Program-made: the position numbers and the translations under genes
The notes under the pieces: generated by a model
The model's input: only the letters and a program-made list of their open reading frames with translations
Told to the model about the DNA's origin: nothing
Databases searched by the model: none
In this document: piece after piece, positions 4,719 to 55,037 of the stretch
How positions within the stretch are numbered: the first letter of the stretch is position 1
How the letters are laid out: each line of letters begins with the position of its first letter
Origin: an uncultured Gammaproteobacteria bacterium
Lineage (GTDB): Bacteria; Patescibacteriota; Microgenomatia; UBA8517
Assembly: GCA_964599625.1 (NCBI GenBank)
Contig: CAZRGC010000004.1
Location: 139,705 to 203,704 of the forward strand
Reading direction: 5' to 3'
DNA length: 64,000 nucleotides

Positions 4719-5644
4719 TTATTAATTGGCTTCTTATAAAAACCGTAAATATAACCGCAAAGAAATATAAAATTCAAAAGTAACATTGCCGGGACGTACT
4801 TCAGACGAGGCTTTCCTGCTCTGTAGGGGAAGGTGGAAAAAAAGTTTTTAGTTGCAAAAATACACCTATTTGTGAAGGTTGTTTTTTTTGGTAGGAGCAA
4901 TGTTAGGTGATATGTGCTTTTACCCAAACCGTAATAGAACCACTGTTTCACAAAACCCTCAAAGGTGGTTCTGTAGTCGTGTTTAACGCTTATTTTTTTA
5001 TGAAAGTAAATATGTGCCCCGTGTTTGACAAGTTTTTTGGAAAAATCATGATCCTCCGATGAATAAGCAAGTCTGTTATCGAATTTTATATTGTTTTTGA
5101 CAAGGAAAGATTTTTTGTAAACAGAATTCCCCGCTGGGACACTGAATACAATTCCTTCGTAGTCGAATTCGTGGCCCGATATTGAATTCCACACCCCATT
5201 CCAATAGTTATTTCCGTGTTTTGGTATTTTTGGTCCACACAAAACATCTAGTGTGGGATCTGACAAAAAGATATCTCTTACGTTTGCCACCCAATCTGCT
5301 GGCATGTATTCGTCATCGTCGATAAAAGCAAAAAAATTCGATTTCACACTTCTTAGAGCTTCATTTCTGGAAAATGCCAAACCTTTGTGTGGAACTTTAA
5401 TGTGTTTAAAATTAATTTTGCGTTTCTTAATAATCGAACTGTATTGTTTAACATCATCCGAGGATACATTGTCTGATGCATCAATTACAAAAACATTTTG
5501 TGGTTTTACTTTGTTGGTTGCGATTCTGCTAAGACATGACTTTAGTTGGGGAACCCTGTTTCTAGTAATTATAGCTATATCTATTTTGAATTTAGTCATA
5601 CTTATCAGCTTTAACCTTTCTTTTGGAATATTTCTCAAGAACAC
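4715..5644 (-). CDS. glycosyltransferase family 2
   Basis: IAIITRNRVPQLKSCLSRI...VFVIDASDN and a DDDEY motif; GT-A fold. Confidence 0.75.
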   Translation of the reverse strand: MFLRNIPKERLKLISMTKFKIDIAIITRNRVPQLKSCLSRIATNKVKPQNVFVIDASDNVSSDDVKQYSSIIKKRKINFKHIKVPHKGLAFSRNEALRSVKSNFFAFIDDDEYMPADWVANVRDIFLSDPTLDVLCGPKIPKHGNNYWNGVWNSISGHEFDYEGIVFSVPAGNSVYKKSFLVKNNIKFDNRLAYSSEDHDFSKKLVKHGAHIYFHKKISVKHDYRTTFEGFVKQWFYYGLGKSTYHLTLLLPKKTTFTNRCIFATKNFFSTFPYRAGKPRLKYVPAMLLLNFIFLCGYIYGFYKKPINK

Positions 5645-25486: not shown

Positions 25487-27550
25487 CTATATCAAAGAAG
25501 CATTTGATAATTGCTCCGTAATTTGTGGGTATTTATCTGGGTCTTTGACTATTTCATCGGCCAGATCCTTAATTCTTTTTATAAGTTTGTGGTCGTTCCA
25601 GGCTGCGATTTTTAGTTCCGAAAACCCTGACTGCATAGTTCCAAATATTTCCCCCGGACCCCTGAGTTCCAGGTCAATTTCAGCCAATTCAAATCCTGAA
25701 TGGGTTTTTTCCATGGCTTTAAGTCGTTTGGAATATTTTATATTTGAAAACAGTAGGCAGTATGATTTTTGGGTGCCGCGACCAACTCTACCCCTAAGCT
25801 GATGAAGTTGAGCTAATCCAAATCTTTCCGCTGCTTCAATTATCATTATTGTCGCGTTTGGAATATCAATTCCCACTTCCACAACCGGCGTTGCAACAAG
25901 AATATCGGTTTTTTTATTTTTGAAGTCTGACAAGACCTGGTCTTTTTCTTTCACTTTCATCCTGCCGTGCAAAAGACCAAGTTTTCGGTCCCTGAACACC
26001 CTTTTTAATTTTTCATATTCCGATGTAACTGACTTCACGTCAGTTAGGGTTTCCGATTCAGAATCTTCAATCAGTGGACAAACCACAAAAACCTGAGACG
26101 CAGTTTCTTTAATTTGTTTTTCAACCCATGCGTAGGCACCTTTGCGCTTTTGTTCAGGAACAACCCAGGTCGTAACAACCTGCCTGCCTTTTGGGCTTTC
26201 TTTTAGAATTGATAAATTCAAATCACCGTACGTAGTTAGAGCAACGGTGCGCGGGATTGGTGTTGCTGTCATGGTTAGAACGTGAGGAGTACCCGACTTT
26301 TTGGCAAGATGAGCGCGCTGCTCTACACCAAAGCGGTGTTGTTCATCTATTACTACAAACGCCACCTTATCAAAACTCACTTTGCTGTGAATAAGAGCAT
26401 GAGTTCCAACAAAAATGTCAGTTCTTCCCAATTCCATCTTTTTGCTTGCCGAAGTTAGTAACGAAACTCTTACGTTAAAGGGTTCAAAAATTTTTTTGAG
26501 TGTTTCGTAATGTTGGTTTGCCAGGATTTGAGTAGGTGCCATAATAAGCGACTGATACCCATTTACGAATGCGGCAAAAGCTCCGGCAGCGGCCACAACC
26601 GTCTTTCCGCTACCAACATCTCCCTCCAGAAGTCTGTTCATCGGTGTTGGTTTTTCTAAATCAGACACAATTTCTTCAATTGCGATACCTTGTGAATCGG
26701 TTAACTCATAAGGCAAACTTTTTATAAAACTATTAAGCGCAGACCCGTCAATTTTTAACCTGTACTTAACTTTGTTTTGTTTCCAATTGAGTTTTCTGTA
26801 TTCACTTTTTAGTTGGAGGTTCAAAAGCTCGTTAAAGCCCAGCCTTTCGCGACCTTGTAAAGCATCAACTTCTTTTTGAGGAAAGTGAACCAAAGACAAG
26901 GCAGTCTTTAGATCTACGAGATTTTCCCTTTTAAGAATGTCTTTTGGTAAAAAATCTCTTATTTCCATACTTGGATCCTGGTATGCATTTCTTACAAGTG
27001 TTCTCAGCCATTTGGAGGATAGTCCAGCAGTTTCTGGATAAAGAGGAACCAGTTTGCCTGTATGATAAGTTTCACCGTCTTCTTCCTCCATAATTTCGTA
27101 GTCTGGTGAGGTGAGACAAAGTTTTCTGTTAAAAAAACCAACCTTACCGGAAAGCGAAACCAGACGTCCCGGATAAAGCATTTTGGTAAGAAATGGCTGG
27201 TTGAACCAAATAACCATAAGTTTACCAGTTGAATCTTCTACACTTCCTATTTGCATTCGTCTGCCTTTTTTGGAAAAAATGTTCGCGATAGAAATAATTT
27301 TGGCGTGAATTGTAACTGTCTCCCCAAGTCTAAGACCTTTTATGGTGGTTATTTGAGAGTAGTCCAGGTAGCGTGAAGGTACATGATAAAAAAGGTCGTT
27401 GATTGTTCTTATTCCCAGTTTTTCAAGTTTTTTGGAAAGAATTGGTCCAACTTTTGGAAGATCTGTAATAGAGGAGTTTAGATCCATTAGATTGTCAGGC
27501 GTATAACATATAGGGCAATATTGCGCTGACAATAAGTGCCAACATTGCAA
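25487..27550 (-). CDS. recG: ATP-dependent DNA helicase RecG
   Basis: Walker A GDVGSGKT, DEQH box VIDEQHRFGV, and the RecG wedge/helicase architecture. Confidence 0.9.
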   Translation of the reverse strand: MQCWHLLSAQYCPICYTPDNLMDLNSSITDLPKVGPILSKKLEKLGIRTINDLFYHVPSRYLDYSQITTIKGLRLGETVTIHAKIISIANIFSKKGRRMQIGSVEDSTGKLMVIWFNQPFLTKMLYPGRLVSLSGKVGFFNRKLCLTSPDYEIMEEEDGETYHTGKLVPLYPETAGLSSKWLRTLVRNAYQDPSMEIRDFLPKDILKRENLVDLKTALSLVHFPQKEVDALQGRERLGFNELLNLQLKSEYRKLNWKQNKVKYRLKIDGSALNSFIKSLPYELTDSQGIAIEEIVSDLEKPTPMNRLLEGDVGSGKTVVAAAGAFAAFVNGYQSLIMAPTQILANQHYETLKKIFEPFNVRVSLLTSASKKMELGRTDIFVGTHALIHSKVSFDKVAFVVIDEQHRFGVEQRAHLAKKSGTPHVLTMTATPIPRTVALTTYGDLNLSILKESPKGRQVVTTWVVPEQKRKGAYAWVEKQIKETASQVFVVCPLIEDSESETLTDVKSVTSEYEKLKRVFRDRKLGLLHGRMKVKEKDQVLSDFKNKKTDILVATPVVEVGIDIPNATIMIIEAAERFGLAQLHQLRGRVGRGTQKSYCLLFSNIKYSKRLKAMEKTHSGFELAEIDLELRGPGEIFGTMQSGFSELKIAAWNDHKLIKRIKDLADEIVKDPDKYPQITEQLSNASLI

Positions 27551-27592
27551 TTATGATAATGACAGTAAATATTTTTTTGCCTCTTTTAGATA

Positions 27593-28744
27593 TCATTTTG
27601 CTTTAAGAAATGTTCGGCTACCCACTTTTATTTCGTCGCCGGATTGGACGATGTAGGATCCGTCTGAAACCCTTTCTCCATTCACCTCTACGGCATTTTG
27701 TTTAAGCAATCTCTTTGCGTCGCTTGTGCTTTGCAAAGAAGTAAATGGAGTTATTGTTTGCACCAGTGTGGAGTTTGCGTCGACCTTTATGTCAAAGTCT
27801 GGTTTTTTGTTCTGAAAAGTTTTGGCGAACTTGTCCTGCGCATCATTTGCCGCTGATTCCCCCCACAAAAACTTTACAACCTCAAATGCCAGATTTTTCT
27901 TTTCTCCCATAGGATCTTTTTGAACTTTTTGAGAAAGATTTGTTAAATCTACTTCGGTAAGAAGTTCAAATCCCAACTCGATAACTTCGTCGGGAAACGA
28001 CATGATTCCGGCATAAAAGTCAGACGGATGCGAGTCCATAAAAAGGGCATTACCTGTGGTTTTACCAACTTTCTTACCTTCTTTATCAACCAAAAGTTTA
28101 GTAGTAAGAACATACTTCTCCTTGTTTTTGATTGCTTTCATTAAGGTCCTGCCTGCCATCATATTGAAAAGTTGATCGTTGCCGCCGACTTCCAAGTCAA
28201 CATCCATGGCAACTGAGTCATACCCTTGGGCAACCGGATATAAAAATTCATGGAGATAAATTGGAGCCTTGGTTTTTATTCTTTCCTGGAACATGTCCCT
28301 CTCAATCATCTGCTGCACTGTTAAATTTGAGGTTATTTCAATAAGATCTTTAAAAGTTATTTTGTCGCTCCACTCGGAGTTGAACAGTATTTTTGCAGGG
28401 TTTTCTCCTTCGAAGTCCAGGACACGCCCCGCTTGCTCCATCCAGGCCTTTGCGTTTTCCAAAACTTCTGTTCGAGTAAGTTTTTTCCTTGTTGCGAGCT
28501 TGTCGGTGGGATCACCAATCATGCCGGTAAAGTCGCCAACCAAAAAGATAACCTCGTGCCCCAGTTTTTGGAACTGTCGAAGTTTCATAAGGCCCACAAA
28601 GTTGCCAAGATGCAAAGAAGGTGCGGATGGGTCAAAACCCTGAAAAAGTTTTATTTTTCTTTTGGACAAAAGATCCACCAGCCCGTCTTTACCTGGGAGT
28701 ATCTGCGATACACCTCGTGTGAGAATTTCATCAATGTTATTCAT
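27593..28744 (-). CDS. tyrS: tyrosyl-tRNA synthetase
   Basis: GFDPSAPSLHLGN (HIGH region), KVGKT (KMSKS-like), and a C-terminal S4 domain. Confidence 0.9.
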   Translation of the reverse strand: MNNIDEILTRGVSQILPGKDGLVDLLSKRKIKLFQGFDPSAPSLHLGNFVGLMKLRQFQKLGHEVIFLVGDFTGMIGDPTDKLATRKKLTRTEVLENAKAWMEQAGRVLDFEGENPAKILFNSEWSDKITFKDLIEITSNLTVQQMIERDMFQERIKTKAPIYLHEFLYPVAQGYDSVAMDVDLEVGGNDQLFNMMAGRTLMKAIKNKEKYVLTTKLLVDKEGKKVGKTTGNALFMDSHPSDFYAGIMSFPDEVIELGFELLTEVDLTNLSQKVQKDPMGEKKNLAFEVVKFLWGESAANDAQDKFAKTFQNKKPDFDIKVDANSTLVQTITPFTSLQSTSDAKRLLKQNAVEVNGERVSDGSYIVQSGDEIKVGSRTFLKAK

Positions 28745-28812
28745 AACTTTATTATTATGTTTTTGCTCCAGTCTATTTTATTCTGTATACAATGGCCAGT
28801 CAAAGTGTTGAT

Positions 28813-29904
28813 TTAATAGTTTTCTACAAAATCTTTTAAACCTTCAAAAAACTTAAGGCATGAAGAAATGCTTATCCACTCTGTTTCCGAATGTATCTCT
28901 CCACCCATTGGTTTCATCATAAGAACAGGAATATTGTATTTTGCAAAATGCCGAGCATCACTTGCACCATATGTATGTGTTACAACTATTTTTTTCTTGT
29001 AGACTTTTTCCATACTCTGCAAAAAAGTTCTAACCATTTCGTCTGATTCATCGGTGAAAGTCGGAAGGCCTGTAGAGGCTTTGGCCACCTCAACTCTTTC
29101 TGAAATCTTTTTTGCTATATCAGTCACCTTTTGTGTAATTTTTTCGATGCTATCAGATTCAGGATAACGAAAATCCAGTTTCATTACTGCCTCGGGGCAA
29201 ACTTGATTTAGCGAGATACCACCCTGTACCTGGCCTATATTCAAAGTTGTATTCCAATTTTCTTTCAGGCTGTTTTTGCCGTAAATCTTAAGAAGTTCAT
29301 GCCCAATCTTTATAATCGAGTCCAGAGCATTTTTTCCCATCCAAGGCCTGCTCGCGTGTGCAGGAGACCCTTTGGCAGTTAGGATTAGCTGACAAACGCC
29401 CTTAGCTTTATTTACAAAAGTTAAATTATCCCCTCCGTCGGGAACAATCAAACATTTGGGAACAATTTTAAGATTGTCGGCGACGAACTTTCCTCCATCG
29501 AACCCTCCCACCTCTTCGTCTGTGGTGATAATTAATGAAAAAGATTTTTTGGACTTTGACTCAATCAAATCGTTCAATATTGCCACACCCAAAGGTATGG
29601 AAAATTTCATATCACTTGCACCTCGGCCAAACAATTTATCACCCTTCGATACAGCTCTAAACTGGTCGGGTCTGGCTGCGACCACGTCCATGTGCACCAT
29701 ATATCCTAGTTCAGGTTTTGTGGTATCTGTGTTGCTTGCTATCAAAATTTCAGCATTTCCATTTTTCAGACGTTTGACTAGTGCTTTTTTGTGCAAGATT
29801 GATTTCACAAAGTCCAAAGCCTTTGAATTTTCGGGCACATTTCCGCTAACTGTTTCAAACGAAATCAATTTTGTTAACTGTTTTACAAATAAATCTTTGT
29901 TCAT
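28813..29904 (-). CDS. M20-family metallopeptidase / deacylase (ArgE/DapE-like), paralog of 23543-24634
   Basis: HMDVV and GASDMK motifs; same length (363 aa) as the other M20. Confidence 0.85.
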   Translation of the reverse strand: MNKDLFVKQLTKLISFETVSGNVPENSKALDFVKSILHKKALVKRLKNGNAEILIASNTDTTKPELGYMVHMDVVAARPDQFRAVSKGDKLFGRGASDMKFSIPLGVAILNDLIESKSKKSFSLIITTDEEVGGFDGGKFVADNLKIVPKCLIVPDGGDNLTFVNKAKGVCQLILTAKGSPAHASRPWMGKNALDSIIKIGHELLKIYGKNSLKENWNTTLNIGQVQGGISLNQVCPEAVMKLDFRYPESDSIEKITQKVTDIAKKISERVEVAKASTGLPTFTDESDEMVRTFLQSMEKVYKKKIVVTHTYGASDARHFAKYNIPVLMMKPMGGEIHSETEWISISSCLKFFEGLKDFVENY

Positions 29905-29952
29905 ATTCTATATGCGATTCTAAAACTTTGACGGGTCATCGTCAAAGTAAAC

Positions 29953-29974
29953 AAAAAAACCTCCTTGCGGAGGC
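29953..29974 (-). terminator. intrinsic terminator (GCAA tetraloop hairpin + U7)
   Basis: Minus strand GCCUCCGCAAGGAGGU followed by UUUUUUU. Confidence 0.6.
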
Positions 29975-30002
29975 TTGCCTTGGTTTAATGTTTCTTTAGC
30001 CA

Positions 30003-30062
30003 CTAAACGGCAACCCCGCTTGAGAGGTTGTAGTGATAGTGCCAGTTCGAAATAGTGTTCAT
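30003..30062 (-). CDS. candidate leader peptide (19 aa, MNTISNWHYHYNLSSGVAV)
   Basis: ATG lies 8 nt downstream of a TTGACA-N16-TATGAT promoter; the ORF ends about 30 nt before the terminator. Paralogous in layout and N-terminus (MNT..W.Y) to the cassette at 53379-53459. Confidence 0.3.
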   Translation of the reverse strand: MNTISNWHYHYNLSSGVAV

Positions 30063-30070
30063 ATTCCCCA

Positions 30071-30098
30071 ATCATAGCACAAAGCCTTTTCTTGTCAA
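30071..30098 (-). promoter_or_regulatory. sigma70-like promoter (TTGACA-N16-TATGAT)
   Basis: Near-consensus hexamers on the minus strand between the GNAT-like gene stop and the mini-ORF. Confidence 0.5.
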
Positions 30099-30114
30099 AA
30101 CTTGCCAGGTTTGG

Positions 30115-30810
30115 CTATTTAAAAATGTATCCTGCAAATATAATTGCATCACCCTTAAGATAGTTAAAGTCTGGTTTTTTGATAGCTATCGAATCAAATC
30201 TGGCAATATCTTCGTAAAGACTTTGGCCGCCATACCTTTCTTTATCAATTGGACCTTCCTGGGTGTCTTGCATATTTCCGGTACCAATTAGCCCCGCCAC
30301 CTCTCGGGCTAGGTCTGCGTCAAAACGAGATACTTTCTGCCCCAGCTTTTCCATTAGGACCGACTGTGTGTGAAACGCAATAATGTCTGTACTTGTAACC
30401 ATAAGCTCTCTTTGTAATATTGCTACAGAAAAATTTTTATGGTGCAGTGTGGGGTCCACAATTATTCCACCAAGGTGATACACGTTATTTTCTCTATGTT
30501 TTGCGAATCCTGCGGCAATAAAGGCAATAACTTTTCCTGACGAATCTCTGAAAACGGAAAGCCGGTCGCAGGGCACAACATGGTTATATACGTCTTCGTA
30601 CAGCCTCTGATATCCCTCTCGTGTTGTCAAATCCCTCATAAACCCAAGTCCGGTAATTGGGGTTAGCTCGTGTGATAATAATTCTTTTGCTTCGTTATCA
30701 AGTGTTCTGTCCGGCATAAGAATTACTTGCTTTGTCACGCCGGCAAAATTTTCGGCTTCCGTTCTCCCTCCAATAATAAATGTTTCTTTTTCGCTTCTCA
30801 TATAATTCAA
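30115..30810 (-). CDS. GNAT-fold acyltransferase-like protein (divergent paralog of 24641-25174)
   Basis: NNVYHLGGIIVDPTLHHKNFSVAILQREL aligns with the GNAT motif-A region NNWVELGAIVVDKGFRKSGVGHAITKDLI of the other GNAT. Start is TTG 30810 or ATG 30801. Confidence 0.5.
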   Translation of the reverse strand: MNYMRSEKETFIIGGRTEAENFAGVTKQVILMPDRTLDNEAKELLSHELTPITGLGFMRDLTTREGYQRLYEDVYNHVVPCDRLSVFRDSSGKVIAFIAAGFAKHRENNVYHLGGIIVDPTLHHKNFSVAILQRELMVTSTDIIAFHTQSVLMEKLGQKVSRFDADLAREVAGLIGTGNMQDTQEGPIDKERYGGQSLYEDIARFDSIAIKKPDFNYLKGDAIIFAGYIFK

Positions 30811-31040
30811 AAAAAACTCGCCTTCACAACCGACAAATGTCGGTCATAAGGGCGAGTTTTCTCGCTGTGCCACCTTAATTCGTTAAAAAGTTGCCTTTTT
30901 AACCTTAAAAACTAACTCCGCCTGTGCGACATTAGTTTTGAATATTACGGTTTCCTCCGGAGCCTGGTACTTTCCTTGCGGATGATTCTCAGGTCAGCTC
31001 GGTGAGTCCATTCCCTCACCTCAAGTGCATTTCAACTGTA
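30809..31040 (-). promoter_or_regulatory. T-box riboswitch leader (copy 1), possible Trp specificity
   Basis: Minus strand carries AAUUAAGGUGGCACAGCGAG (T-box core, 12/14) at 30861-30880. An antiterminator helix GCGAG-AAAA-CUCGC overlaps the terminator CUCGCC...GGCGAG (30817-30856) plus U8, which abuts the start codon. An F-box-like AACCGUAA is present. The 5' hairpin GGUGAG-GGAAUGGA-CUCACC has UGG-A in its loop, and the bulge UGGC would pair a G73 tRNA. Confidence 0.6.
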
Positions 31041-31044
31041 AAAA

Positions 31045-31073
31045 AGTATAAAAATGTTTTTCTAAAATGTCAA
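31045..31073 (-). promoter_or_regulatory. sigma70-like promoter for T-box leader 1 (TTGACA-N17-TATACT)
   Basis: Consensus -35 and near-consensus -10 on the minus strand, just downstream of the TDO-like gene stop. Confidence 0.5.
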
Positions 31074-31090
31074 ATTTACGGCTAAATAAG

Positions 31091-32218
31091 TTAATTATCA
31101 GTGAAAATCAGTTGAATAATATTTCCAAAGTTGTTGATTCTGTTCCTCAAAAACGATTCAGAATCGTTAACACCGCTAGTGCCTTCGATTGGTCCACTAA
31201 TTGTGTTCAAAAGTTGTTTTTGTGTAGATCTTAAGTGGGCCACTCTAAAATTCAAAATAAGATTCAAGTTTGTATCCAAAACATCCCTTACCTCTTTTGT
31301 TGGCTTATTGGCCATTAGTTTTGTTACAATGCTACCCTCTTCGATTGATTTTTTGAGATAATGGTCTATCTGCTTCATGCCGCTTACAGGAAAGTATTGT
31401 CTGTATTTTTGGAAATAATCTTGGTAACTTTTGCCCAATTTGTCACCGGCCAAAAGCACTTCCGCAAGTGGCACCCTTGCTGTAAATTGACCACTAGGGC
31501 CGGACAAACCGTTGACGGGGTGTGTTTGCAAGTAGTCTCTAAAGTATACAAAGTCTGACACAGGCATATCTCTACCTATCCTGCCAGTGTATTCGACTAG
31601 AAATCTCAGTCCTTTTTGGCTTTCTGCCAGATGTTGAAAAATCAAATCAGAGTTTGGCTGTGTTTTTGATTTGTCAAAAACAAACTTCAGGTGATCAAGA
31701 GATTTTTCCATCTCCTTTTCAATAAGCAAGTGGCCTTCATAAAAATCGGACTCTGACTCACCCACCTTGCCGGGGGTAAAGACCCTTTTGTCTAGCGTAG
31801 GGTTATTTAGAACTATATCTTCATAGGTAATGTGAGCAGGCATGCCGCTAAGTGTGACTATTTTCTCCAAAACTTTCTGGAACTTTGGCCCGGGAGTTAT
31901 GGGTGAAGCAAGTATTCCGGACTTTTGTAATAAGCGTGAAGAGTGTGCAATTCCACTATCCAACATCAAAAGGTCAAGCCTAGCCAAAGAAAGTGTGTCA
32001 GGACTCAGCTTGCCGTCTTTTATTAGTATTCCGTAGTCAAAATTTTCCATATAACCCTCGAGGTAATCTCTCAAGATTATTAATGATCCCACTGAAGCAC
32101 TATCTCTTATTTCGGCAAGCCTTCCCGGAAGTTCTTCGACGACAAAATGACTCAAATACCCAAGAGGTCTTTGTTCGCTACGGGCAAAATGTTCGTCTTT
32201 AAAAATTTCCCGTCCCAC
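31091..32218 (-). CDS. hypothetical protein, weak resemblance to tryptophan 2,3-dioxygenase family
   Basis: GTG start. FVYFRDYLQTHPVNGLSGPSGQF resembles TDO FNDFREYLSPASGFQSLQF, and the C-terminal GTSG block resembles TDO GTGGSSG. A leaderless TTGACA-N17-TATATA promoter lies at 32226-32254. Confidence 0.35.
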   Translation of the reverse strand: MGREIFKDEHFARSEQRPLGYLSHFVVEELPGRLAEIRDSASVGSLIILRDYLEGYMENFDYGILIKDGKLSPDTLSLARLDLLMLDSGIAHSSRLLQKSGILASPITPGPKFQKVLEKIVTLSGMPAHITYEDIVLNNPTLDKRVFTPGKVGESESDFYEGHLLIEKEMEKSLDHLKFVFDKSKTQPNSDLIFQHLAESQKGLRFLVEYTGRIGRDMPVSDFVYFRDYLQTHPVNGLSGPSGQFTARVPLAEVLLAGDKLGKSYQDYFQKYRQYFPVSGMKQIDHYLKKSIEEGSIVTKLMANKPTKEVRDVLDTNLNLILNFRVAHLRSTQKQLLNTISGPIEGTSGVNDSESFLRNRINNFGNIIQLIFTDN

Positions 32219-32343
32219 TTATTTCTATATATACCTATTTTCAATCGATGTCAAAAAAAAGGTGTATACTCCAAAAGTTATTTCGCACGTTCAAATAACC
32301 TGTGGTGTTTTTTATTTCATAACCCGGAAAGGAGGTTTAGAAA

Positions 32344-33366
32344 ATGACCACTAAAAGAGTTCTAACCGGAATGAGAACAACCGGTAGTTTGCACTTAGGA
32401 CATTATGCCGGGGCTCTCAAACGCTGGTTGGAAATTCAAGAAAGTAACAAGTACGAAAACTTTTTTCTACTTGCAGACATTCAGGCACTCACAACACATG
32501 CGGATCAGCCTGAGCTTCTCAAAAAATCGATTCGGGATGTGACACTTGACTGGTTGAGTGTTGGTCTTGACCCCTTCCGGTCTGATGTCCATTTTGTTTT
32601 GCAAAGCCAGGTGCCTGCAAGGGCAGAGCTTTCAATACTTTTTACAATGATCGCCCAGTACCATGAGGTGCTGAGAAATCCGACACTCAAAGACGAACTA
32701 GCCAATCAAAAGCAACCTTCGCTCGGATTCATCAACTACCCTGTGGATCAGGCTGCCGACATTTATATGGTTTCACCTGTAAATCCGTCGGGTGGTGATC
32801 AATTGCTTGTGCCCGTAGGACAAGATCAGGTTGCTCATCTGGAATTTGCCAACAGACTTGCCAGGAAGATTAACAACAAATACGGAAACATCGTTCTCCC
32901 TTGTGATCCGCTTGTAGGACACGTTGGCAGGCTTCCCGGAGTTGGCGGAGGTGACAAAATGAGTAAAAGTAAAGGAAACTCAATCGACCTTACGGACGAC
33001 GCCGAGACAGTGAGACGAAAAGTGATGAAGATGTATACAGATCCCAATCGCATTTCACCCAATATGCCTGGGGACGTGATCAATAATCCAGTATTCATCT
33101 ATCACAGAGCGTTCAACGACGACCGCAACCAGGTTTTGGAACTGTCTGATCTTTACAAAGTTGGAAAAGTTGGTGATGTTGAGGTTAAAGAAAGACTTGC
33201 CGAAGCATTAAACCGCTTTTTGGACCCTATCCGCGAAAGGCGCAAAAAATTTGAAAAGGTCAATCTACGCGACTTGCTTGTAAGTGGTTCGGAAGCTGCT
33301 CAAAAATATTGCTTGCCGGTAACTGAAGCTTTACGGGAAAAAATGTTTTTGGGTTATCCTGACTAA
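32344..33366 (+). CDS. trpS: tryptophanyl-tRNA synthetase
   Basis: TGSLHLGHYAG (HIGH) and KMSKSKGN (KMSKS). SD GGAAAGGAGG upstream of the ATG. Confidence 0.9.
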   Translation: MTTKRVLTGMRTTGSLHLGHYAGALKRWLEIQESNKYENFFLLADIQALTTHADQPELLKKSIRDVTLDWLSVGLDPFRSDVHFVLQSQVPARAELSILFTMIAQYHEVLRNPTLKDELANQKQPSLGFINYPVDQAADIYMVSPVNPSGGDQLLVPVGQDQVAHLEFANRLARKINNKYGNIVLPCDPLVGHVGRLPGVGGGDKMSKSKGNSIDLTDDAETVRRKVMKMYTDPNRISPNMPGDVINNPVFIYHRAFNDDRNQVLELSDLYKVGKVGDVEVKERLAEALNRFLDPIRERRKKFEKVNLRDLLVSGSEAAQKYCLPVTEALREKMFLGYPD

Positions 33367-33370
33367 ACTT

Positions 33371-33412
33371 GAGCGTGGTGCTTATCGATTGAAAAAGCCC
33401 ACGCTCTTTTTG
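33371..33412 (+). terminator. intrinsic terminator after trpS
   Basis: GAGCGUGG...CCACGCUC 8-bp stem followed by a U-tract. Confidence 0.45.
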
Positions 33413-33413
33413 T

Positions 33414-36011
33414 TTGTATTTTTTTGAGTCTCTGGTTAAAATCAGAGTAATGTGGAGGGACAGGCTCAGAAGAAGAAGACGAGTGTTTAACGGCAGACAA
33501 AACTTATCCAGGAGCAGACTTTTGGTGAAAATTGCCCAGTTTGGCTTTTTGGGAGTTGTCTTGATAGTTATAGCTTTTTTTATAGCACTGCCTTTGCTTT
33601 CACTGGCTCTGCCATCCCCTGACAAAATAGTAAGAACTCAGGGATTTTCGACACAAATAACCGATAGAAACGGACAAATTTTGTATGAGGTTTATGCAAA
33701 CCAAAACAGAACTCCTGTAAAACTTCAAGACATGCCTTTGTACCTAAGACAAGCTACAATTGCGATTGAAGATAAGAACTTTTATTCACATTCAGGTTTT
33801 GACCCAATAGGTATTGTTAGAGGCTTTTTAAGGATTTTCAAAAGCGGGAGAGCAGCCGGAGGTTCCACTCTCACCCAACAACTGGTCAAAAATTCACTTC
33901 TAACCAGTGATAGAACTTTAGTAAGAAAAATAAAAGAATTCGTTTTGTCAGTTGAAATTGAAAAAAAGTATTCTAAAGATCAGATTTTACAAATGTATCT
34001 TAACGAAGTTCCCTACGGAGGGACTGCTTGGGGTGTTGGCGCTGCCTCACAGACTTATTTTGGCAAAGAGGTTAAAGACTTGGACTTGATTGAAAGTGCA
34101 ATCTTGGCAGGACTACCCCAAAGTCCTTCTAATTACTCTCCTTATTCAAGCAAACCAAAGGCATACATAGGAAGAACCAAGGAGGTCTTAAGGAGAATGA
34201 GAGAAGATGGGTATATAACTGCAGACCAGGAAAAATCTGCCGTAGATTCATTGGAAGGTGTTACTTTCCAGACCAGAGGTGCAGGGTTTAAGGCACCGCA
34301 TTTTGTACAGTACGTCCAAAAAATTCTAGAGGACAGATACGGCCAGGCATCTGTCGAACAAGGTGGTCTAAAGGTTCAGACCACTTTGGACCTGACTCTT
34401 CAAGAGACGGCGCAAAGTATTGTTTCAGAAGAAATAGCCAAGGTTGAAAAACAACATATAACCAATGGAGCAGCAGTGGTTTTGAACCCAGACACCGGTG
34501 AAATTGTTGCAATGGTGGGCTCCAAAGATTTTAATGCAGCAGATTACGACGGCCAAGTAAACGTTACAACTTCACTAAGACAACCGGGTTCGTCATTTAA
34601 ACCGTTCACATATGTCACCGGTCTTAAAAAGGGCTACACGGCTGCAACTATGTTTATGGATGTTCCCACAAGTTTTCCCGGTGGTGCGAATAACGCCGAT
34701 TACAACCCTGTTAATTACGATGGAAAATATAGGGGTCCTGTTCAAATGCGATATGCACTGGCCAATTCTATAAACGTCCCGGCAGTCAAAATGCTTGCAA
34801 TGGTTGGTATCAAAGATGTCCTGCAGACAGCAACTGACATGGGAATTACTACACTACCCCCAACCAACGAGACACTTAGACGTGTAGGTCTCTCACTAAC
34901 TCTTGGTGGAGGTGAAGTTAGACTTATCGATCTTACGAATGCATATTCAGCGTTTGTTAACACTGGCTATCGGGTTGACCCTATTGCAATTCTCAAGGTA
35001 ACGGATGTTAACGGTAAAGTTTTGGAGGACAACACACCCCAAAAAGGAAAAAGAGTTTTGTCGGAAGAACAAGCATTTATCATCAACCACATCTTGTCAG
35101 ACAATAATGCCAGGAAAGATGTGTTTGGCCCGAATTCGCTTTTAAACATACCCAATGTCATGGTCAAAACAGGAACCACCAACGACAAACGGGATAACTG
35201 GACCATTGGGGGAAACATGAACGCGGTCGTGGGTGTTTGGGTTGGCAACAATGACAACTCACCCATGTTGAATGTGGCTTCAGGTGTCAGTGGTGCTTCC
35301 CCCATCTGGCGCAGAATTCTTTTGGAAGCCGTAAAGGGAAAACCTGAGGTAAAATTCGACCCGCCGGGAAATATTGTCCAAATCGATGTCGACACAATAT
35401 CCGGCGCCAGATCTCATGATGGTTTTGCATCGCGGAGTGAATATTTTCAAAAAGGTACGGAGCCGGGTGAAGATACAACACATGTCATGCTTAAACTTTG
35501 CAAAAGTGAACAAAAACTTGCCAATCCTTCTGATGTCGCAGCCGGAAACTATGACAGCAAAGAGTTTTTGCAATTTAAAGAAGAAGATCCGACTGCTGCA
35601 CCGGGAGGCACCAATCGATGGCAGGAGGCAATTATTAACTGGGTAAATGGCCAAGCGGATTCCAAATATCATCCTCCAAGTGAATACTGTGGTGCAAGTA
35701 ATCCTATAAATGTGGAGTTTGTCAGTCCAACCGACAGAAATTCTAATGTGCCCAATAATACAACGATAAAATTCAGAGTTGATGCAGTGAATGATATTGT
35801 ACAGGCGGAATTATATATAGATTCTAAAAAAGTAAGAAGCTTCTCAAGTGTCCCATTTGAATTCACAAGTGACTCGTCCAGTTTGCCAAATGGTGTTCAT
35901 ACTTTGCGTGCGGTTGCAACCGACTCGACCGGAAAAAGCTCGGACAGAGTAATAACAATTGGAGTTAATGTTGCCTGGAACGCTACCCCATCTCCAAGTC
36001 CGTCACCCTAA
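33414..36011 (+). CDS. class A penicillin-binding protein (bifunctional transglycosylase/transpeptidase) with C-terminal Ig-like extension
   Basis: GT51 motifs IAIEDKNFYSHSGFD and GGSTLTQQL. Transpeptidase SSFKPF (SxxK), SINVP (SxN) and KTGTT. Confidence 0.85.
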   Translation: MYFFESLVKIRVMWRDRLRRRRRVFNGRQNLSRSRLLVKIAQFGFLGVVLIVIAFFIALPLLSLALPSPDKIVRTQGFSTQITDRNGQILYEVYANQNRTPVKLQDMPLYLRQATIAIEDKNFYSHSGFDPIGIVRGFLRIFKSGRAAGGSTLTQQLVKNSLLTSDRTLVRKIKEFVLSVEIEKKYSKDQILQMYLNEVPYGGTAWGVGAASQTYFGKEVKDLDLIESAILAGLPQSPSNYSPYSSKPKAYIGRTKEVLRRMREDGYITADQEKSAVDSLEGVTFQTRGAGFKAPHFVQYVQKILEDRYGQASVEQGGLKVQTTLDLTLQETAQSIVSEEIAKVEKQHITNGAAVVLNPDTGEIVAMVGSKDFNAADYDGQVNVTTSLRQPGSSFKPFTYVTGLKKGYTAATMFMDVPTSFPGGANNADYNPVNYDGKYRGPVQMRYALANSINVPAVKMLAMVGIKDVLQTATDMGITTLPPTNETLRRVGLSLTLGGGEVRLIDLTNAYSAFVNTGYRVDPIAILKVTDVNGKVLEDNTPQKGKRVLSEEQAFIINHILSDNNARKDVFGPNSLLNIPNVMVKTGTTNDKRDNWTIGGNMNAVVGVWVGNNDNSPMLNVASGVSGASPIWRRILLEAVKGKPEVKFDPPGNIVQIDVDTISGARSHDGFASRSEYFQKGTEPGEDTTHVMLKLCKSEQKLANPSDVAAGNYDSKEFLQFKEEDPTAAPGGTNRWQEAIINWVNGQADSKYHPPSEYCGASNPINVEFVSPTDRNSNVPNNTTIKFRVDAVNDIVQAELYIDSKKVRSFSSVPFEFTSDSSSLPNGVHTLRAVATDSTGKSSDRVITIGVNVAWNATPSPSPSP

Positions 36012-53327: not shown

Positions 53328-53350
53328 AAAAAAACCTCTCTTGCGAGAGG
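53328..53350 (-). terminator. intrinsic terminator (GCAA tetraloop hairpin + U7)
   Basis: Minus strand CCUCUC-GCAA-GAGAGG followed by UUUUUUU; A-tract on the other side, so possibly bidirectional. Confidence 0.6.
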
Positions 53351-53378
53351 TTGTCTTTTTCTATTTTTTTTGTTTTTA

Positions 53379-53459
53379 CTAGCTTTGAACTTCTCTCGCC
53401 ACGTTATATAAGCCCTTAATAAGGGTAAAACAGACGAGCATGTACCAAGCCGTATTCAT
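53379..53459 (-). CDS. candidate leader peptide (26 aa, MNTAWYMLVCFTLIKGLYNVAREVQS)
   Basis: ATG lies 11 nt downstream of a TTGACA-N18-TAGAAT promoter and the ORF ends about 28 nt before the terminator. Same geometry as cassette 30003-30098. Confidence 0.3.
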   Translation of the reverse strand: MNTAWYMLVCFTLIKGLYNVAREVQS

Positions 53460-53470
53460 TTCAAGTCTAA

Positions 53471-53500
53471 ATTCTAAAAAACACACCAGCTATCTGTCAA
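53471..53500 (-). promoter_or_regulatory. sigma70-like promoter (TTGACA-N18-TAGAAT)
   Basis: Consensus -35 on the minus strand immediately after the M20 gene stop. Confidence 0.45.
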
Positions 53501-54843: not shown

Positions 54844-54869
54844 AAAAAAACTCTCCTTTTTGGTGAGAG
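54844..54869 (-). terminator. intrinsic terminator / possible attenuator 13 nt upstream of the M20 start
   Basis: Minus strand CUCUCACC-AAAAA-GGAGAG followed by UUUUUUU. Confidence 0.4.
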
Positions 54870-55037
54870 TTTTGCTTGTTTAAGCTTAAATTAATTTTTT
54901 TATATACCTCTCTCACCACGCATAACCTTCTTCCACGAATGGAAATAGGAGTTAAACATGTAGGAAAGACGTGTCATTGTCTGTATTTTAGCTTTTAAAG
55001 ACACTGAAGGTCAAGAAGATTCCGAATTATCGGCAAA

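What the first reader, a model, noticed from the sequence alone, without database searches (positions are those of the whole stretch)
29953..30098. Promoter - near-leaderless mini-ORF - GCAA-tetraloop terminator cassette upstream of M20-tyrS (candidate peptide-mediated attenuator)
TTGACA-N16-TATGAT is followed 8 nt later by AUG AAC ACU AUU UCG AAC UGG CAC UAU CAC UAC AAC..., giving MNTISNWHYHYNLSSGVAV with two Tyr, two His and one Trp codon clustered. The stop lies 30 nt before the terminator GCCUCCGCAAGGAGGU+U7, which itself sits 48 nt before the M20 start, and tyrS follows. The Tyr-codon segment GGCACUA can pair with UAGUGGC downstream (region 1:2), and GGGGUUGCC can pair with the terminator 5' strand GGCAAGCC (2:3 antiterminator). 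This resembles trp/his/pheM ribosome-stalling attenuators and would be a Tyr-responsive control of tyrS. Alternatively it is an independent ~110-nt sRNA.
Basis: partly seen in the sequence, partly recalled or inferred. Interest (0 to 1): 0.55.

Follow-up and report, generated by a model that had tools for sequence, protein, structure and literature searches.

The report
Aromatic leader-peptide attenuator before peptidase–tyrS operon
A promoter, a 19-codon mini-gene with a conserved Tyr-Trp-His codon cluster and a terminator together look like a classical ribosome-stalling attenuator that switches a peptidase–tyrosyl-tRNA-synthetase operon on when aromatic amino acids run short, in an uncultivated "candidate phyla radiation" (CPR) bacterium where no such control has been described.

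Summary
On the minus strand there is a TTGACA-N16-TATGAT promoter, an AUG 8 nt later, the ORF MNTISNWHYHYNLSSGVAV, and a GCAA-loop terminator with U7 lying 48 nt before an M20 hydrolase gene that is followed by tyrS.

The organism is a Woesebacteria-like CPR bacterium. I found the same cassette in 16 distinct relatives, plus more distant versions. It always sits at the head of the operon that contains M20–tyrS. In 16 of 18 loci the next gene's ATG lies only 4–22 nt after the U-run, so the cassette acts in cis and is not a free-standing sRNA gene.

- **Leader ORF:** the AUG is invariant and lies 6–8 nt after the -10 box (leaderless). The frame stays open for 16–23 codons. Trp7 is present in 16/16, His8 in 14/16 and Tyr6 in 13/16.
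- **RNA structures:** three mutually exclusive structures (1:2, 2:3 antiterminator, 3:4 terminator) are predicted in every homologue, and their partner segments co-vary.
- **Paralogues:** the window holds two further cassettes with aromatic-rich leaders, before a second M20 gene and before a DUF6025–M19 dipeptidase–racemase operon.

Best reading: a ribosome-mediated transcription attenuator that senses aromatic (Trp/Tyr, probably His) aminoacyl-tRNA supply. It is a new member of a known kind. All evidence is computational.

The parts
30093..30098 (-). -35 box TTGACA of the leader promoter P1
   Evidence: A TTGACA or TTGACT box sits at the same place in the homologues.
30071..30076 (-). -10 box TATGAT, preceded by TG; 16-nt spacer from the -35 box
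   Evidence: 11 of 12 consensus positions. In 11 homologues the -10 box lies 6-8 nt before the leader ATG, so the transcript should begin at or next to the AUG.
30003..30062 (-). Leaderless leader ORF MNTISNWHYHYNLSSGVAV plus its UAG stop
   Evidence: The ATG is invariant in 16/16 aligned homologues. Frame 0 is open for 16-23 codons in 18/18 sequences.
30030..30044 (-). Candidate regulatory codons UGG CAC UAU CAC UAC (Trp7 His8 Tyr9 His10 Tyr11)
   Evidence: In the 16-member family, W7 is present in 16/16, H8 in 14/16 and Y6 in 13/16. Every leader has at least one Tyr codon.
30024..30043 (-). Segment 1: 5' strand of the anti-antiterminator hairpin (GGCACUAUCACUACAACCUC). It overlaps the regulatory codons.
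   Evidence: Cognate segment 1:segment 2 duplexes are more stable than permuted pairings (p about 0.0008).
30001..30019 (-). Segment 2 (GCGGGGUUGCCGUUUAGUG). It pairs either with segment 1 or with segment 3, and the leader stop codon lies inside it.
   Evidence: In the antiterminator core, 89.5% of alignment cells are paired, against 26-49% when the partner columns are slid.
29967..29990 (-). Segment 3 (CAUUAAACCAAGGCAAGCCUCCGC): 3' strand of the antiterminator. It includes the terminator's 5' strand and part of its loop.
   Evidence: -23.7 kcal/mol; z = -4.2; co-variation with segment 2.
29953..29976 (-). Intrinsic terminator AAGCCUCC-GCAA-GGAGGUUU followed by U7 (segments 3:4)
   Evidence: one match in the window against 0.01 expected. 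The terminator is conserved in all homologues.
29917..29945 (-). Second promoter-like site P2, TTGACG-N17-TAGAAT, just before M20. Its -35 box lies in the palindrome TTGACG-ATGACC-CGTCAA.
   Evidence: Similar TTGAC...GTAAAGAyTTAGAAT sites precede M20 in L085, L086, L087 and L093.
28813..29904 (-). First regulated gene: an M20 (ArgE/DapE-family) metallo-hydrolase of unknown substrate
   Evidence: Pfam PF01546 and PF07687. NCBIfam scores fall below every equivalog cut-off. The closest solved structure is the uncharacterised 2rb7.
27593..28744 (-). tyrS (tyrosine-tRNA ligase), 68 nt downstream of M20
   Evidence: TIGR00234, 334.9 bits against a cut-off of 113.8. M20 followed by tyrS is conserved in nearly all related loci.
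54844..55014 (-). Paralogous cassette A2: TTGACC-N18-TAAAAT, then 7 nt, then the ORF MTRLSYMFNSYFHSWKKVMRGERGI, then a terminator. The second M20 gene (54830-53511) starts 13 nt after the U-run.
   Evidence: fold z = -4.2. Segment 2 GGUGAGAG is complementary to CUCUCACC in the terminator's 5' strand.
53328..53500 (-). Paralogous cassette A3: TTGACA-N18-TAGAAT, then 11 nt, then the ORF MNTAWYMLVCFTLIKGLYNVAREVQS, then the terminator CAACCUCUC-GCAA-GAGAGGUU with U7. It precedes the DUF6025, M19 dipeptidase and racemase genes.
   Evidence: (fold z = -3.3).

Best explanation
This is a ribosome-mediated (leader-peptide) transcription attenuator of the trp/pheST type, built on a leaderless mini-ORF.

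Proposed mechanism:
1. RNA polymerase starts at promoter P1, so the transcript begins at or next to the AUG. A ribosome translates the 19-codon leader while the polymerase transcribes the next roughly 110 nt.
2. When charged aromatic tRNAs are plentiful, or when the leader is not translated at all, segment 2 (GCGGGGUUGCC...UAGUG) is not free. Either it is held by segment 1 (the codon 7-13 region), or it is covered by the ribosome that has run on to the UAG stop lying inside segment 2. The CCUCC-GCAA-GGAGG-U7 hairpin then forms and transcription stops before M20.
3. When Trp-, Tyr- or His-tRNA is scarce, the ribosome stalls on codons 7-11 (UGG CAC UAU CAC UAC). Its footprint covers segment 1.
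4. Segment 2 is then free to pair with segment 3. That pairing includes the terminator's 5' strand and is about 7-12 kcal/mol more stable than the terminator. The terminator cannot form, and the polymerase reads into M20 and tyrS.

Together with two sister cassettes in the same window, this would switch on peptide and acyl-amino-acid hydrolases, plus TyrRS, when aromatic amino acids are limiting. That makes sense for a CPR bacterium, a group generally held to depend on scavenged amino acids (background knowledge; not checked in this window).

Shown by computation: the cassette and its conservation, its position in cis, the conserved open frame and codon cluster, and the alternative pairings with co-evolving partners.
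Inferred: translation of the leader, stalling, the identity of the effector amino acids, and the regulatory outcome.
For: 1. Conservation and position. nhmmer and inspection find the cassette in 16 distinct relatives of this Woesebacteria-like genome. It is always upstream of the first gene of the operon that contains M20 and tyrS, whatever that first gene is: M20 itself, an Asp/Glu-racemase-family gene, a HAD hydrolase gene or an unknown gene.
2. Cis action. The next gene's ATG lies 4-22 nt after the U-run in 16 of 18 loci.
3. Translation signals.
- The ATG is invariant and sits 6-8 nt after the -10 box.
- Frame 0 is open for 16-23 codons in 18/18 sequences, while the other frames close early.
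- Only 7 of 51 long ORFs in the window have an SD-like motif, and many have a -10 box 6-8 nt before the ATG. Leaderless initiation therefore appears to be the norm in this genome.
4. Codon cluster.
- W7 is present in 16/16, H8 in 14/16 and Y6 in 13/16, with at least one Tyr codon in every leader.
- W, Y and H together are enriched in the three window leaders (12 of 67 residues against a 5.3% background, p = 2e-4).
- The 3' part of the ORF is conserved as RNA but not as peptide. The same nucleotides, GGGUAGCC, are read in different frames in L142 and L143. This is what an attenuator predicts.
5. Structures.
- In all 11 sequences folded (the window, 8 relatives and 2 distant versions), the early transcript forms a 1:2 hairpin.
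- Masking the first 40 nt yields the 2:3 antiterminator.
- The full transcript carries the terminator.
- Across the 16-member family, the antiterminator region has mean dG -18.6 kcal/mol and mean z -2.9. The terminator averages -11.2 kcal/mol.
6. Co-evolution.
- Within the family, cognate partners are more stable than permuted ones for 1:2 (p about 0.0008) and for 2:3 (p about 0.0006).
- Across nine cassettes with different terminator stems, segment 2 changes in step with the terminator's 5' strand: GCGGGG/CCUCCGC, GCGAGAG/CUCUCGC, GGUGAGAG/CUCUCACC, CGGCGG/CCGCCG and GGGAGGU/ACCUCCC.
- There the cognate mean is -14.4 against -10.4 kcal/mol for non-cognate pairs, and 0 of 20,000 permutations reach it.
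7. Functional context.
- tyrS is always in the operon.
- One relative (L148) inserts a phenylalanine-hydroxylase-family gene, whose family converts Phe to Tyr, between M20 and tyrS.
- A distant cassette with the same AACCUC/GGAGGUU design (L007) carries FSFFFF directly 5' of segment 1.
- In L150 a second copy uses the M20 C-terminal codons ...UAC UAC ACA ACC UCC CUU UAG as its 'leader'.
8. A motif scan of the window that ignored amino-acid content returned exactly three cassettes. All three have aromatic-rich leaders and all three precede peptidase genes.
Against: - There are no expression or termination data of any kind.
- Each regulatory amino acid has only one to three codons. The best-conserved residues are Trp7 and His8, not Tyr, so specificity cannot be read off as cleanly as in pheL or hisL.
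- The conserved string UAUUGGCAY is also part of the 1:2 helix, so part of its conservation may be structural.
- Inside the 16-member family the core helices are almost invariant. Classical column covariation is absent (1 and 0 pairs with changes on both sides). RNAalifold on the MAFFT alignment recovers only the terminator and the outer antiterminator helix.
- The 1:2 region is only weakly better than shuffled sequence (mean z = -1.05).
- In this window a promoter-like site (P2) lies between the terminator and M20, and another lies before tyrS. Both could bypass the attenuator.
- Whether transcription and translation are coupled in CPR bacteria is not known.
Confidence: 0.75

Rival explanations
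1. The conserved Tyr-Trp-His motif works as a nascent-peptide arrest sequence, in the manner of TnaC, SpeFL or the Erm leaders. The short nascent chain, with or without a small ligand such as a free aromatic amino acid or a dipeptide, would stall the ribosome at a fixed codon. The stall would then trigger the same 2:3 antiterminator switch, independently of tRNA charging.
For: - The motif sits at a fixed distance from the AUG (W7 in 16/16, H8 in 14/16), rather than being a run of one codon.
- Phe replaces Tyr at codon 9 in three leaders (L143, L148, L149). That looks like conservation of an aromatic side chain rather than of a codon.
- The RNA switch itself is equally compatible with this trigger.
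Against: - Codons 2-5 are not conserved, and the chain would be only 8-10 residues long at the stall site.
- The sister cassettes A2, A3 and L007 have quite different peptides (SYMFNSYFHSW, AWYM, FSFFFF). They share composition, not sequence.
- UAUUGGCAY is also a helix strand, which can explain its fixed position.
Confidence: 0.1
2. The roughly 110-nt terminated transcript is primarily an independent small RNA, or a gene for a functional 19-aa peptide, that merely happens to lie upstream of M20.
For: - The cassette has its own strong promoter and its own terminator.
- In this window a separate promoter-like site (P2) precedes M20.
- Attenuator-derived RNAs and leader peptides with trans functions are known from the literature, for example rnTrpL and peTrpL of Sinorhizobium (titles listed).
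Against: - In 16 of 18 loci the next gene starts 4-22 nt after the U-run with no room for a promoter, so that gene depends on read-through.
- The cassette keeps its position at the head of the M20-tyrS operon even when the first gene differs.
- The C-terminal half of the peptide is not conserved and changes frame between relatives.
- The conserved antiterminator has no purpose in a free-standing sRNA.
- A trans role in addition to attenuation is not excluded.
Confidence: 0.07
3. The switch is operated by a trans factor that binds the conserved UAUUGGCAY/UUUAGUGG sequences: an RNA-binding protein of the TRAP or PyrR type, or an uncharged tRNA as in T-boxes. On this reading the mini-ORF is incidental.
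For: - UAUUGGCAY is more conserved than pairing alone requires.
- The organism does use a T-box-like leader about 800 nt upstream.
Against: - There is no T-box match at the cassette, only noise-level Rfam hits.
- There is no repeated protein-binding triplet array.
- The invariant AUG at the predicted transcription start, and the frame that stays open in 18/18 sequences while other frames close, are unexplained by this model.
- The sister cassettes lack the UAUUGGCAY string but keep the architecture of an ORF plus three RNA segments.
Confidence: 0.05
4. Chance arrangement: the hairpin is simply the terminator of the upstream T-box-controlled ORF (30810-30115), and the promoter-like hexamers and the short ORF are coincidental.
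For: - No terminator lies between that ORF's stop codon (30115) and the cassette, so its transcripts probably do end at this hairpin.
- Promoter-like sites are not enriched in the region.
Against: The whole cassette, from promoter to U-run, is conserved next to unrelated upstream genes: serS, hisS on the opposite strand, a PBP gene, EamA and others. nhmmer E-values range from 1e-14 to 1e-25.
Confidence: 0.02

Closest known systems
E. coli trp operon attenuator (trpL leader peptide); textbook knowledge, summarised in PMC4007540
   Same: - A short leader ORF with a few regulatory codons (two Trp in trpL).
- Three mutually exclusive pairings: 1:2, 2:3 and 3:4.
- An intrinsic terminator just before the first structural gene.
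- A stop codon placed so that a ribosome that has not stalled blocks segment 2.
   Different: - The leader here is leaderless, with no Shine-Dalgarno sequence.
- The codon cluster is mixed (Tyr-Trp-His, with or without Phe).
- The regulated genes are hydrolases plus an aminoacyl-tRNA synthetase, not a biosynthetic pathway.
- The host is a CPR bacterium.
- There is no match to the Rfam leader families. The only leader-family match at the cassette is Phe_leader at 17.5 bits against a gathering score of 55, covering the terminator only.
E. coli pheST attenuator (pheM leader); own knowledge
   Same: An aminoacyl-tRNA synthetase operon controlled by ribosome stalling on codons for an aromatic amino acid in a short leader peptide.
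   Different: - In pheST the synthetase genes follow the leader directly, and the leader is rich in the single cognate codon (Phe).
- Here tyrS is the second to fifth gene, behind M20 and other hydrolase genes.
- Tyr codons number only 1-3, and the Trp codon is the invariant one.
Leaderless leader-peptide attenuators of Deinococcus deserti and Actinobacteria (PMC4007540; 10.1101/834739; PMC11857589)
   Same: - The transcript starts at the AUG of a short sensory ORF.
[quoted passage not shown]
- In mycobacteria, several Cys-rich leaderless ORFs form a ribosome-directed regulon, called a 'ribulon' by the authors. The three aromatic cassettes in this window look like the same idea.
   Different: - The phylum is different (Patescibacteria/CPR).
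- The signal is different (aromatic residues).
- The targets are peptidases and amidohydrolases.
- The mycobacterial Cys elements act on translation by sequestering the ribosome-binding site. The cassettes here carry canonical intrinsic terminators.
T-box leader of tyrS (Rfam RF00230)
   Same: Both control tyrS in response to the supply of the cognate amino acid. A T-box-like element is present in this same window, at 30845-31034.
   Different: A T-box senses uncharged tRNA directly through a specifier codon and a UGGN bulge and contains no ORF. The cassette has no T-box match.

Membership tests
Ribosome-mediated (leader-peptide) transcription attenuators | A short translatable ORF at the 5' end of the transcript, upstream of the regulated genes | tested here: met
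   - The ATG lies 8 nt after the -10 box here and 6-8 nt after it in 11 homologues.
- The ATG is invariant in 16/16 sequences.
- The frame is open for 16-23 codons in 18/18 sequences.
- The genome rarely uses SD sequences, so leaderless starts are plausible.
- Translation itself has not been shown.
Ribosome-mediated (leader-peptide) transcription attenuators | A cluster of codons for the amino acid or acids relevant to the regulated operon, placed in or just before segment 1 | tested here: inconclusive
   - A conserved Tyr6-Trp7-His8-(Tyr/Phe)9 cluster lies directly 5' of, and inside, segment 1.
- tyrS is in the operon and every leader has at least one Tyr codon.
- However, Trp and His are the best-conserved residues, the M20 substrate is unknown, and there are only 1-3 codons per amino acid.
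Ribosome-mediated (leader-peptide) transcription attenuators | An intrinsic terminator between the leader ORF and the first structural gene | tested here: met
   - The hairpin has an 8-bp stem, a GCAA loop and a U7 run.
- It is conserved in all homologues.
- The next gene's ATG lies 4-22 nt after the U-run in 16 of 18 loci.
Ribosome-mediated (leader-peptide) transcription attenuators | An antiterminator (2:3) that is mutually exclusive with the terminator and at least as stable | tested here: met
   - It is predicted in all 16 family members, with mean dG -18.6 against -11.2 kcal/mol for the terminator and mean z = -2.9.
- In the core, 89.5% of cells are paired against 26-49% in slid controls.
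- Its partner segments co-vary within the family (p about 0.0006) and across nine cassettes (0 of 20,000 permutations).
Ribosome-mediated (leader-peptide) transcription attenuators | An anti-antiterminator (1:2) whose 5' strand would be covered by a ribosome stalled at the regulatory codons | tested here: met
   - A hairpin pairing codons 7-13 with segment 2 is predicted in every homologue.
- Cognate pairs are more stable than permuted pairs (p about 0.0008).
- Support is weaker than for 2:3: mean z = -1.05 and no column covariation.
Ribosome-mediated (leader-peptide) transcription attenuators | Read-through increases when the cognate charged tRNA is limiting and depends on translation of the leader | not testable with these tools
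   This needs Term-seq, reporter assays or in-vitro coupled transcription-translation.
T-box leaders (RF00230) | Stem I with a specifier loop, plus the conserved T-box sequence with a UGGN bulge in the antiterminator | tested here: not met
   cmscan at permissive thresholds finds no T-box at 29900-30130. The only T-box-like hit is 800 nt upstream, at 30845-31034.
Curated Rfam amino-acid leader families (Trp_leader, His_leader, Phe_leader, Thr_leader, Leu_leader) | A match to the family covariance model at its gathering score | tested here: not met
   There are no matches at gathering score anywhere in the window apart from two tRNAs. The best hit at the cassette is Phe_leader at 17.5 bits against 55, covering the terminator only.

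The most novel reading that the evidence does not exclude
The invariant Tyr-Trp-His core would not be a starvation sensor for charged tRNA. Instead it would be a very short nascent-peptide sensor. An 8-10-residue chain ending in YWH(Y/F) would arrest the ribosome in response to a small ligand, such as a free aromatic amino acid or an aromatic dipeptide or N-acyl amino acid (the likely substrates of the M20 and M19 enzymes). A CPR bacterium would then induce its peptide-salvage hydrolases by sensing substrate or product on the ribosome.
Probability: 0.1. Interest if true: 0.8.

Novelty: new member of a known kind. Interest (0 to 1): 0.55.

Why it matters
CPR/Patescibacteria are uncultivated bacteria with reduced genomes, and almost nothing is known about how they regulate genes. 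My literature searches found no paper that links leader peptides or attenuation with Patescibacteria or CPR.

If this reading is right, a Woesebacteria-like organism uses the textbook ribosome-stalling attenuator in leaderless form for an unusual purpose. It would control salvage enzymes rather than amino-acid biosynthesis: two M20 hydrolases, a DUF6025–M19 dipeptidase–racemase operon, and TyrRS. The three cassettes in 64 kb would form a small ribosome-directed regulon tuned to aromatic residues.

Practical consequences:
- It gives a concrete, testable regulatory circuit for an organism that cannot be cultured. Reporter constructs, in-vitro coupled systems and metatranscriptome read ends could all test it.
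- It hints at the function of the conserved M20 gene next to tyrS, namely supply of aromatic amino acids.
- It provides a sequence and structure model that can be used to annotate such leaders across Microgenomates genomes.

The mechanism itself is classical, so the advance is one of scope, not of principle.

Tried and rejected
- **Known RNA families.** Rfam at gathering score on the whole window gave only two tRNAs. Permissive thresholds around the cassette and around cassettes A2 and A3 gave only noise. ARAGORN found no tRNA or tmRNA there. So the element is not SRP RNA, 6S RNA, a T-box or a curated leader family.
- **Consensus folding.** RNAalifold on the MAFFT alignment A3 recovered only the terminator and the outer antiterminator helix, and no 1:2 consensus. 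The inner helices shift register between relatives.
- **Column covariation.** Counts on A3 were uninformative because the core helices hardly vary. I replaced this test with cognate-versus-permuted duplex energies.
- **Substrate of the M20 enzyme.** NCBIfam scores were below all equivalog cut-offs. The PDB search gave only an uncharacterised structure (2rb7) and distant DapE/ArgE entries. The substrate remains unknown.
- **Source organism.** The exact M20 protein is in the collection, but without a name. The one-per-species genome set holds only a 69% relative.
- **SD hypothesis.** I considered whether the GGAGG 3' strand of the terminator serves as the Shine-Dalgarno sequence of the downstream gene. 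The spacing varies from 11 to more than 50 nt, and cassettes A2 and A3 use GAGAG stems, so I rejected it.
- **TRAP-like triplet repeats and T-box-like UGGN logic in UAUUGGCAY.** Nothing supports either idea.
- **Limits reached.** I could therefore not fetch homologues of cassette A2. The only candidate relative of A3 I hold is the L065 leader.
Full report
**1. What is in the sequence**

The feature lies on the minus strand.
- TTGACA (30098-30093), a 16-nt spacer and TATGAT (30076-30071, preceded by TG) form a promoter that matches 11 of 12 consensus positions.
- Eight nt later, ATG (30062) opens the ORF MNTISNWHYHYNLSSGVAV, which ends at UAG (30005-30003).
- The hairpin AAGCCUCC-GCAA-GGAGGUUU (29976-29957) runs into a U7 tract (29959-29953).
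- The next ATG (29904) starts a 363-aa M20/ArgE-DapE-family hydrolase. tyrS (28744-27593) and recG follow.

Generic promoter and terminator motifs are not enriched in this region, so the motifs alone would not be convincing. However:
- the CCTCC...GGAGGTTTT hairpin is unique in the window, against 0.01 matches expected;
- the 117-nt transcript folds better than shuffled sequence (-33.4 kcal/mol, z = -2.9);
- no tRNA, tmRNA or Rfam family matches it.

**2. Organism and homologues**

The closest M20 proteins in public genomes come from Candidatus Woesebacteria and other Patescibacteria (69% identity at best). The window is therefore from a CPR bacterium.

I collected relatives from the genome and metagenome scans and from 12 contig look-ups of M20 homologues. 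I read the upstream regions and then ran an nhmmer profile over all 159 fetched loci.
- The cassette is present in 16 distinct relatives, with E-values of 1e-14 to 1e-25.
- Recognisably related but more distant versions occur in L092, L002, L003/L091 and L065.
- It is missing where an IS element has been inserted (L001 and its duplicates) and in a few loci where M20 abuts serS or other genes.

**3. It acts in cis**

Wherever it occurs, the cassette precedes the first gene of the operon that contains M20 and tyrS, and that first gene varies.
- M20 itself: the window, L141, L142, L143, L146, L148, L149, L150, L089.
- An Asp/Glu-racemase-family gene: L087, L158.
- A HAD hydrolase gene followed by a nucleoside hydrolase gene: L147, L154, L086.
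- An unknown gene: L081.

In 16 of 18 loci the first gene's ATG lies only 4-22 nt after the U-run, which leaves no room for a promoter. Those genes can be transcribed only by reading through the terminator. This disposes of the 'independent sRNA gene' alternative as the primary function.

The upstream neighbours are unrelated to one another (serS, a divergent hisS, a PBP gene, EamA, and the T-box-controlled ORF here). The hairpin is therefore not simply the terminator of the upstream gene.

**4. Evidence that the mini-ORF is read**

- The promoter is conserved, and the -10 box lies 6-8 nt before the ATG in all 11 sequences examined. The mRNA should therefore begin at the AUG.
- The ATG is invariant in the 16-sequence alignment although the next 12 columns are highly variable.
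- Frame 0 stays open for 16-23 codons in 18/18 sequences, while the other frames close early.
- Only 7 of 51 long ORFs in the window have an SD-like motif, and many have a -10 box just before the ATG. Leaderless initiation appears to be the organism's normal mode.
- Within the leaders, Trp7 is present in 16/16, His8 in 14/16 (Tyr in the other two) and Tyr6 in 13/16. Codon 9 is Tyr, Phe or His in 13/16. Every leader has at least one Tyr codon.
- Downstream of codon 13 the peptide is not conserved, but the RNA is. For example, GGGGUAGCC is read as Gly-Val-Ala in L142, while in L143 the UAG of GGGUAGCC is the in-frame stop.

This is the signature of an attenuator leader: a 5' codon cluster under codon-level constraint and a 3' half that is an RNA element.

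**5. The three alternative structures**

The 11 sequences folded (the window, 8 relatives and 2 distant versions) all behave the same way.
- (i) A transcript truncated before segment 3 forms a long hairpin. The codon 7-13 region (UGGCAYUAU...ACCUCC) pairs with GCGGGG..GCC..UUUAGUGG, the region around the stop codon.
- (ii) If the first 40 nt are masked, as by a ribosome stalled at codons 8-10, GCGGGG..GCC... pairs with ...GGCAAnCCUCCGC. That pairing includes the terminator's 5' strand and two loop bases.
- (iii) Otherwise the terminator forms.

In the window these structures have energies of -19.0, -23.7 and about -11.5 kcal/mol. Across the 16-member family, the means are -17.5 (z = -1.05), -18.6 (z = -2.9) and -11.2 kcal/mol.

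The core helices are almost invariant inside the family. The column counts therefore show maintenance of pairing (89.5% and 82.7% of cells paired, against 26-61% in slid controls) but no compensatory changes. RNAalifold on the MAFFT alignment finds only the terminator and the outer antiterminator helix.

Co-evolution does show up in two other tests.
- Within the family, cognate segment 1:segment 2 and segment 2:segment 3 duplexes are more stable than permuted pairings (p about 0.0008 and 0.0006).
- Across nine cassettes with different terminator stems, segment 2 tracks the terminator's 5' strand: GCGGGG/CCUCCGC, GCGAGAG/CUCUCGC, GGUGAGAG/CUCUCACC, CGGCGG/CCGCCG and GGGAGGU/ACCUCCC. The cognate mean is -14.4 against -10.4 kcal/mol, and 0 of 20,000 permutations reach it.

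**6. Mechanism (inferred)**

Positions are numbered from the A of the AUG.
- Regulatory codons: nt 19-33.
- Segment 1: nt 20-39.
- Segment 2: nt 44-62, containing the stop codon at nt 58-60.
- Segment 3: nt 73-96.
- Terminator: nt 87-106, followed by the U-run to nt 110.

A ribosome stalled with codons 8-11 in its A site would cover nt up to about 37-45. That melts the 1:2 hairpin and leaves segment 2 free to capture segment 3 as it emerges, so the terminator cannot form. A ribosome that reaches the UAG covers segment 2, and a leader that is not translated keeps 1:2 paired. In both of those cases 3:4 forms and transcription ends at about 29953.

**7. What is sensed**

Points in favour:
- tyrS is always in the operon;
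- in L148 a phenylalanine-hydroxylase-family gene, whose family makes Tyr from Phe, sits between M20 and tyrS;
- low-molecular-weight phosphotyrosine-phosphatase-family genes occur in several of the operons;
- in L150 a second, partial copy of the element uses the last codons of M20 itself (...UAC UAC ACA ACC UCC CUU UAG) as its leader, before a 336-aa ORF and tyrS (fold z = -5.0).

Points against a Tyr-only signal:
- Trp7 and His8 are better conserved than any Tyr codon;
- Phe substitutes for Tyr at codon 9.

A scan of the whole window for promoter, short ORF and terminator cassettes, blind to amino-acid content, returned exactly three hits.
- The present cassette.
- A2 (54977-54844, MTRLSYMFNSYFHSWKKVMRGERGI), which ends 13 nt before a second M20 gene.
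- A3 (53459-53328, MNTAWYMLVCFTLIKGLYNVAREVQS), which precedes the DUF6025, M19 dipeptidase and Asp/Glu/hydantoin-racemase genes.

Both A2 and A3 fold into a 1:2 hairpin plus a terminator (z = -4.2 and -3.3), and both have a segment 2 complementary to their own terminator. Trp, Tyr and His are enriched in the three leaders (12 of 67 residues against a 5.3% background, p = 2e-4). A distant cassette of the same design (L007/L098) has FSFFFF immediately 5' of AACCUC and precedes an AstE/AspA-family deacylase gene.

The most economical reading is multivalent sensing of aromatic aminoacyl-tRNAs (Trp and Tyr, probably His, and Phe in some lineages). This would control a small regulon of peptide and acyl-amino-acid hydrolases plus TyrRS. 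The M20 substrate could not be inferred.

**8. Caveats**

- Everything here is computational.
- Each sensed amino acid has few codons.
- UAUUGGCAY is also a helix strand, so its conservation is confounded with structure.
- Support for the 1:2 hairpin is modest.
- In this genome a promoter-like site (TTGACG-N17-TAGAAT, 29945-29917) lies between the terminator and M20. Related sites precede M20 inside the longer operons of relatives. A further site precedes tyrS. The attenuator may therefore add a regulated component on top of basal transcription.

**9. Comparison with what is known, and novelty**

Mechanistically this is the trpL/pheM scheme. Leaderless leader peptides that control synthetase and biosynthetic genes have been predicted in Deinococcus deserti (PMC4007540). 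They have been demonstrated, as translation-level attenuators forming a 'ribulon', for Cys in mycobacteria (10.1101/834739).

I found no report of leader-peptide attenuation, T-boxes or riboswitches in Patescibacteria in the searchable library. I also found none of leader-peptide attenuators governing dipeptidases. The element matches no curated Rfam leader family.

I therefore classify it as a new member of a known kind. The points of interest are its phylum, its salvage-enzyme targets, the mixed aromatic codon cluster and the presence of three sister cassettes in 64 kb.

Noticed in passing
window 54844-55014 (minus strand): A second attenuator-like cassette (A2). It has TTGACC-N18-TAAAAT, then 7 nt, then the ORF MTRLSYMFNSYFHSWKKVMRGERGI. 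Its segment 2, GGUGAGAG, is complementary to the terminator's 5' strand, CUCUCACC. A second M20 gene (54830-53511, 439 aa) starts 13 nt after the U7 run. Fold z = -4.2.
   Followed up: partly
window 53328-53500 (minus strand): A third cassette (A3). It has TTGACA-N18-TAGAAT, then 11 nt, then the ORF MNTAWYMLVCFTLIKGLYNVAREVQS, then a GCAA-loop terminator. It precedes the DUF6025 (53272-51821), M19 dipeptidase (51824-50946) and Asp/Glu/hydantoin racemase (50959-50150) genes. Fold z = -3.3. The leader in L065 (MKVMNYWYIITLALVLFKRSAVV) looks related.
   Followed up: partly
window 30845-31034 (minus strand), promoter at 31073-31045: A T-box-like leader scoring 47 bits, below the Rfam gathering score of 93. 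Its stem I is very short and has the terminal loop GGAAUGGA, which could hold a UGG (Trp) specifier. It has a UGGC bulge and its own terminator (AAACUCGCC...GGCGAGU8). It precedes a 231-aa ORF (30810-30115) with no family match. The Trp assignment is my inference, not a tested result.
   Followed up: partly
window 29928-29945 (minus strand): The palindrome TTGACG-ATGACC-CGTCAA overlaps the -35 box of the promoter-like site P2 just before M20. It could be an operator or simply a small hairpin. Related TTGAC...GTAAAGAyTTAGAAT sites precede M20 in L085, L086, L087 and L093.
   Followed up: no
L150 3575-3675 (also L151): An intercistronic copy of the attenuator. The 'leader' is the 3' end of the M20 gene itself (...Asn-Tyr-Tyr-Thr-Thr-Ser-Leu-stop; UAC UAC directly 5' of AACCUCC). 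It is followed by GGCGGAG, a terminator and then a 336-aa ORF plus tyrS. Fold z = -5.0.
   Followed up: partly
L007 about 5179-5266 (and L098): A distant cassette with the same AACCUC / GGGGAGGUU / AACCUCCC-loop-GGGAGGUU design. Its leader is rich in Phe (MLRNINQIFSFFFFNLEKGEVGICVKK). It lies after an M20 gene and before an AstE/AspA-family deacylase gene.
   Followed up: partly
L148 3595-4359: In one relative a Biopterin_H (aromatic amino-acid hydroxylase) gene is inserted between M20 and tyrS, inside the attenuator-controlled operon.
   Followed up: no
L001 3600-4000 (same sequence in L083, L084, L090): In the GW2011_GWB1_39_10 Woesebacteria genome the region upstream of M20 holds the 3' end of an IS/transposase-like ORF, and the attenuator is absent. 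This suggests that an insertion displaced it.
   Followed up: no
whole window: Only 7 of 51 long ORFs have an SD-like motif. Many have a TATAAT-like box 6-8 nt upstream of the ATG. This points to a genome in which most mRNAs are leaderless.
   Followed up: partly
window 25487-36011: Genes of translation and aromatic amino-acid handling are clustered here: trpS (32344-33366, plus strand), the T-box-controlled ORF231, the M20-tyrS pair and recG. In relatives, serS, hisS, glyS-like and tRNA_edit genes flank M20.
   Followed up: no
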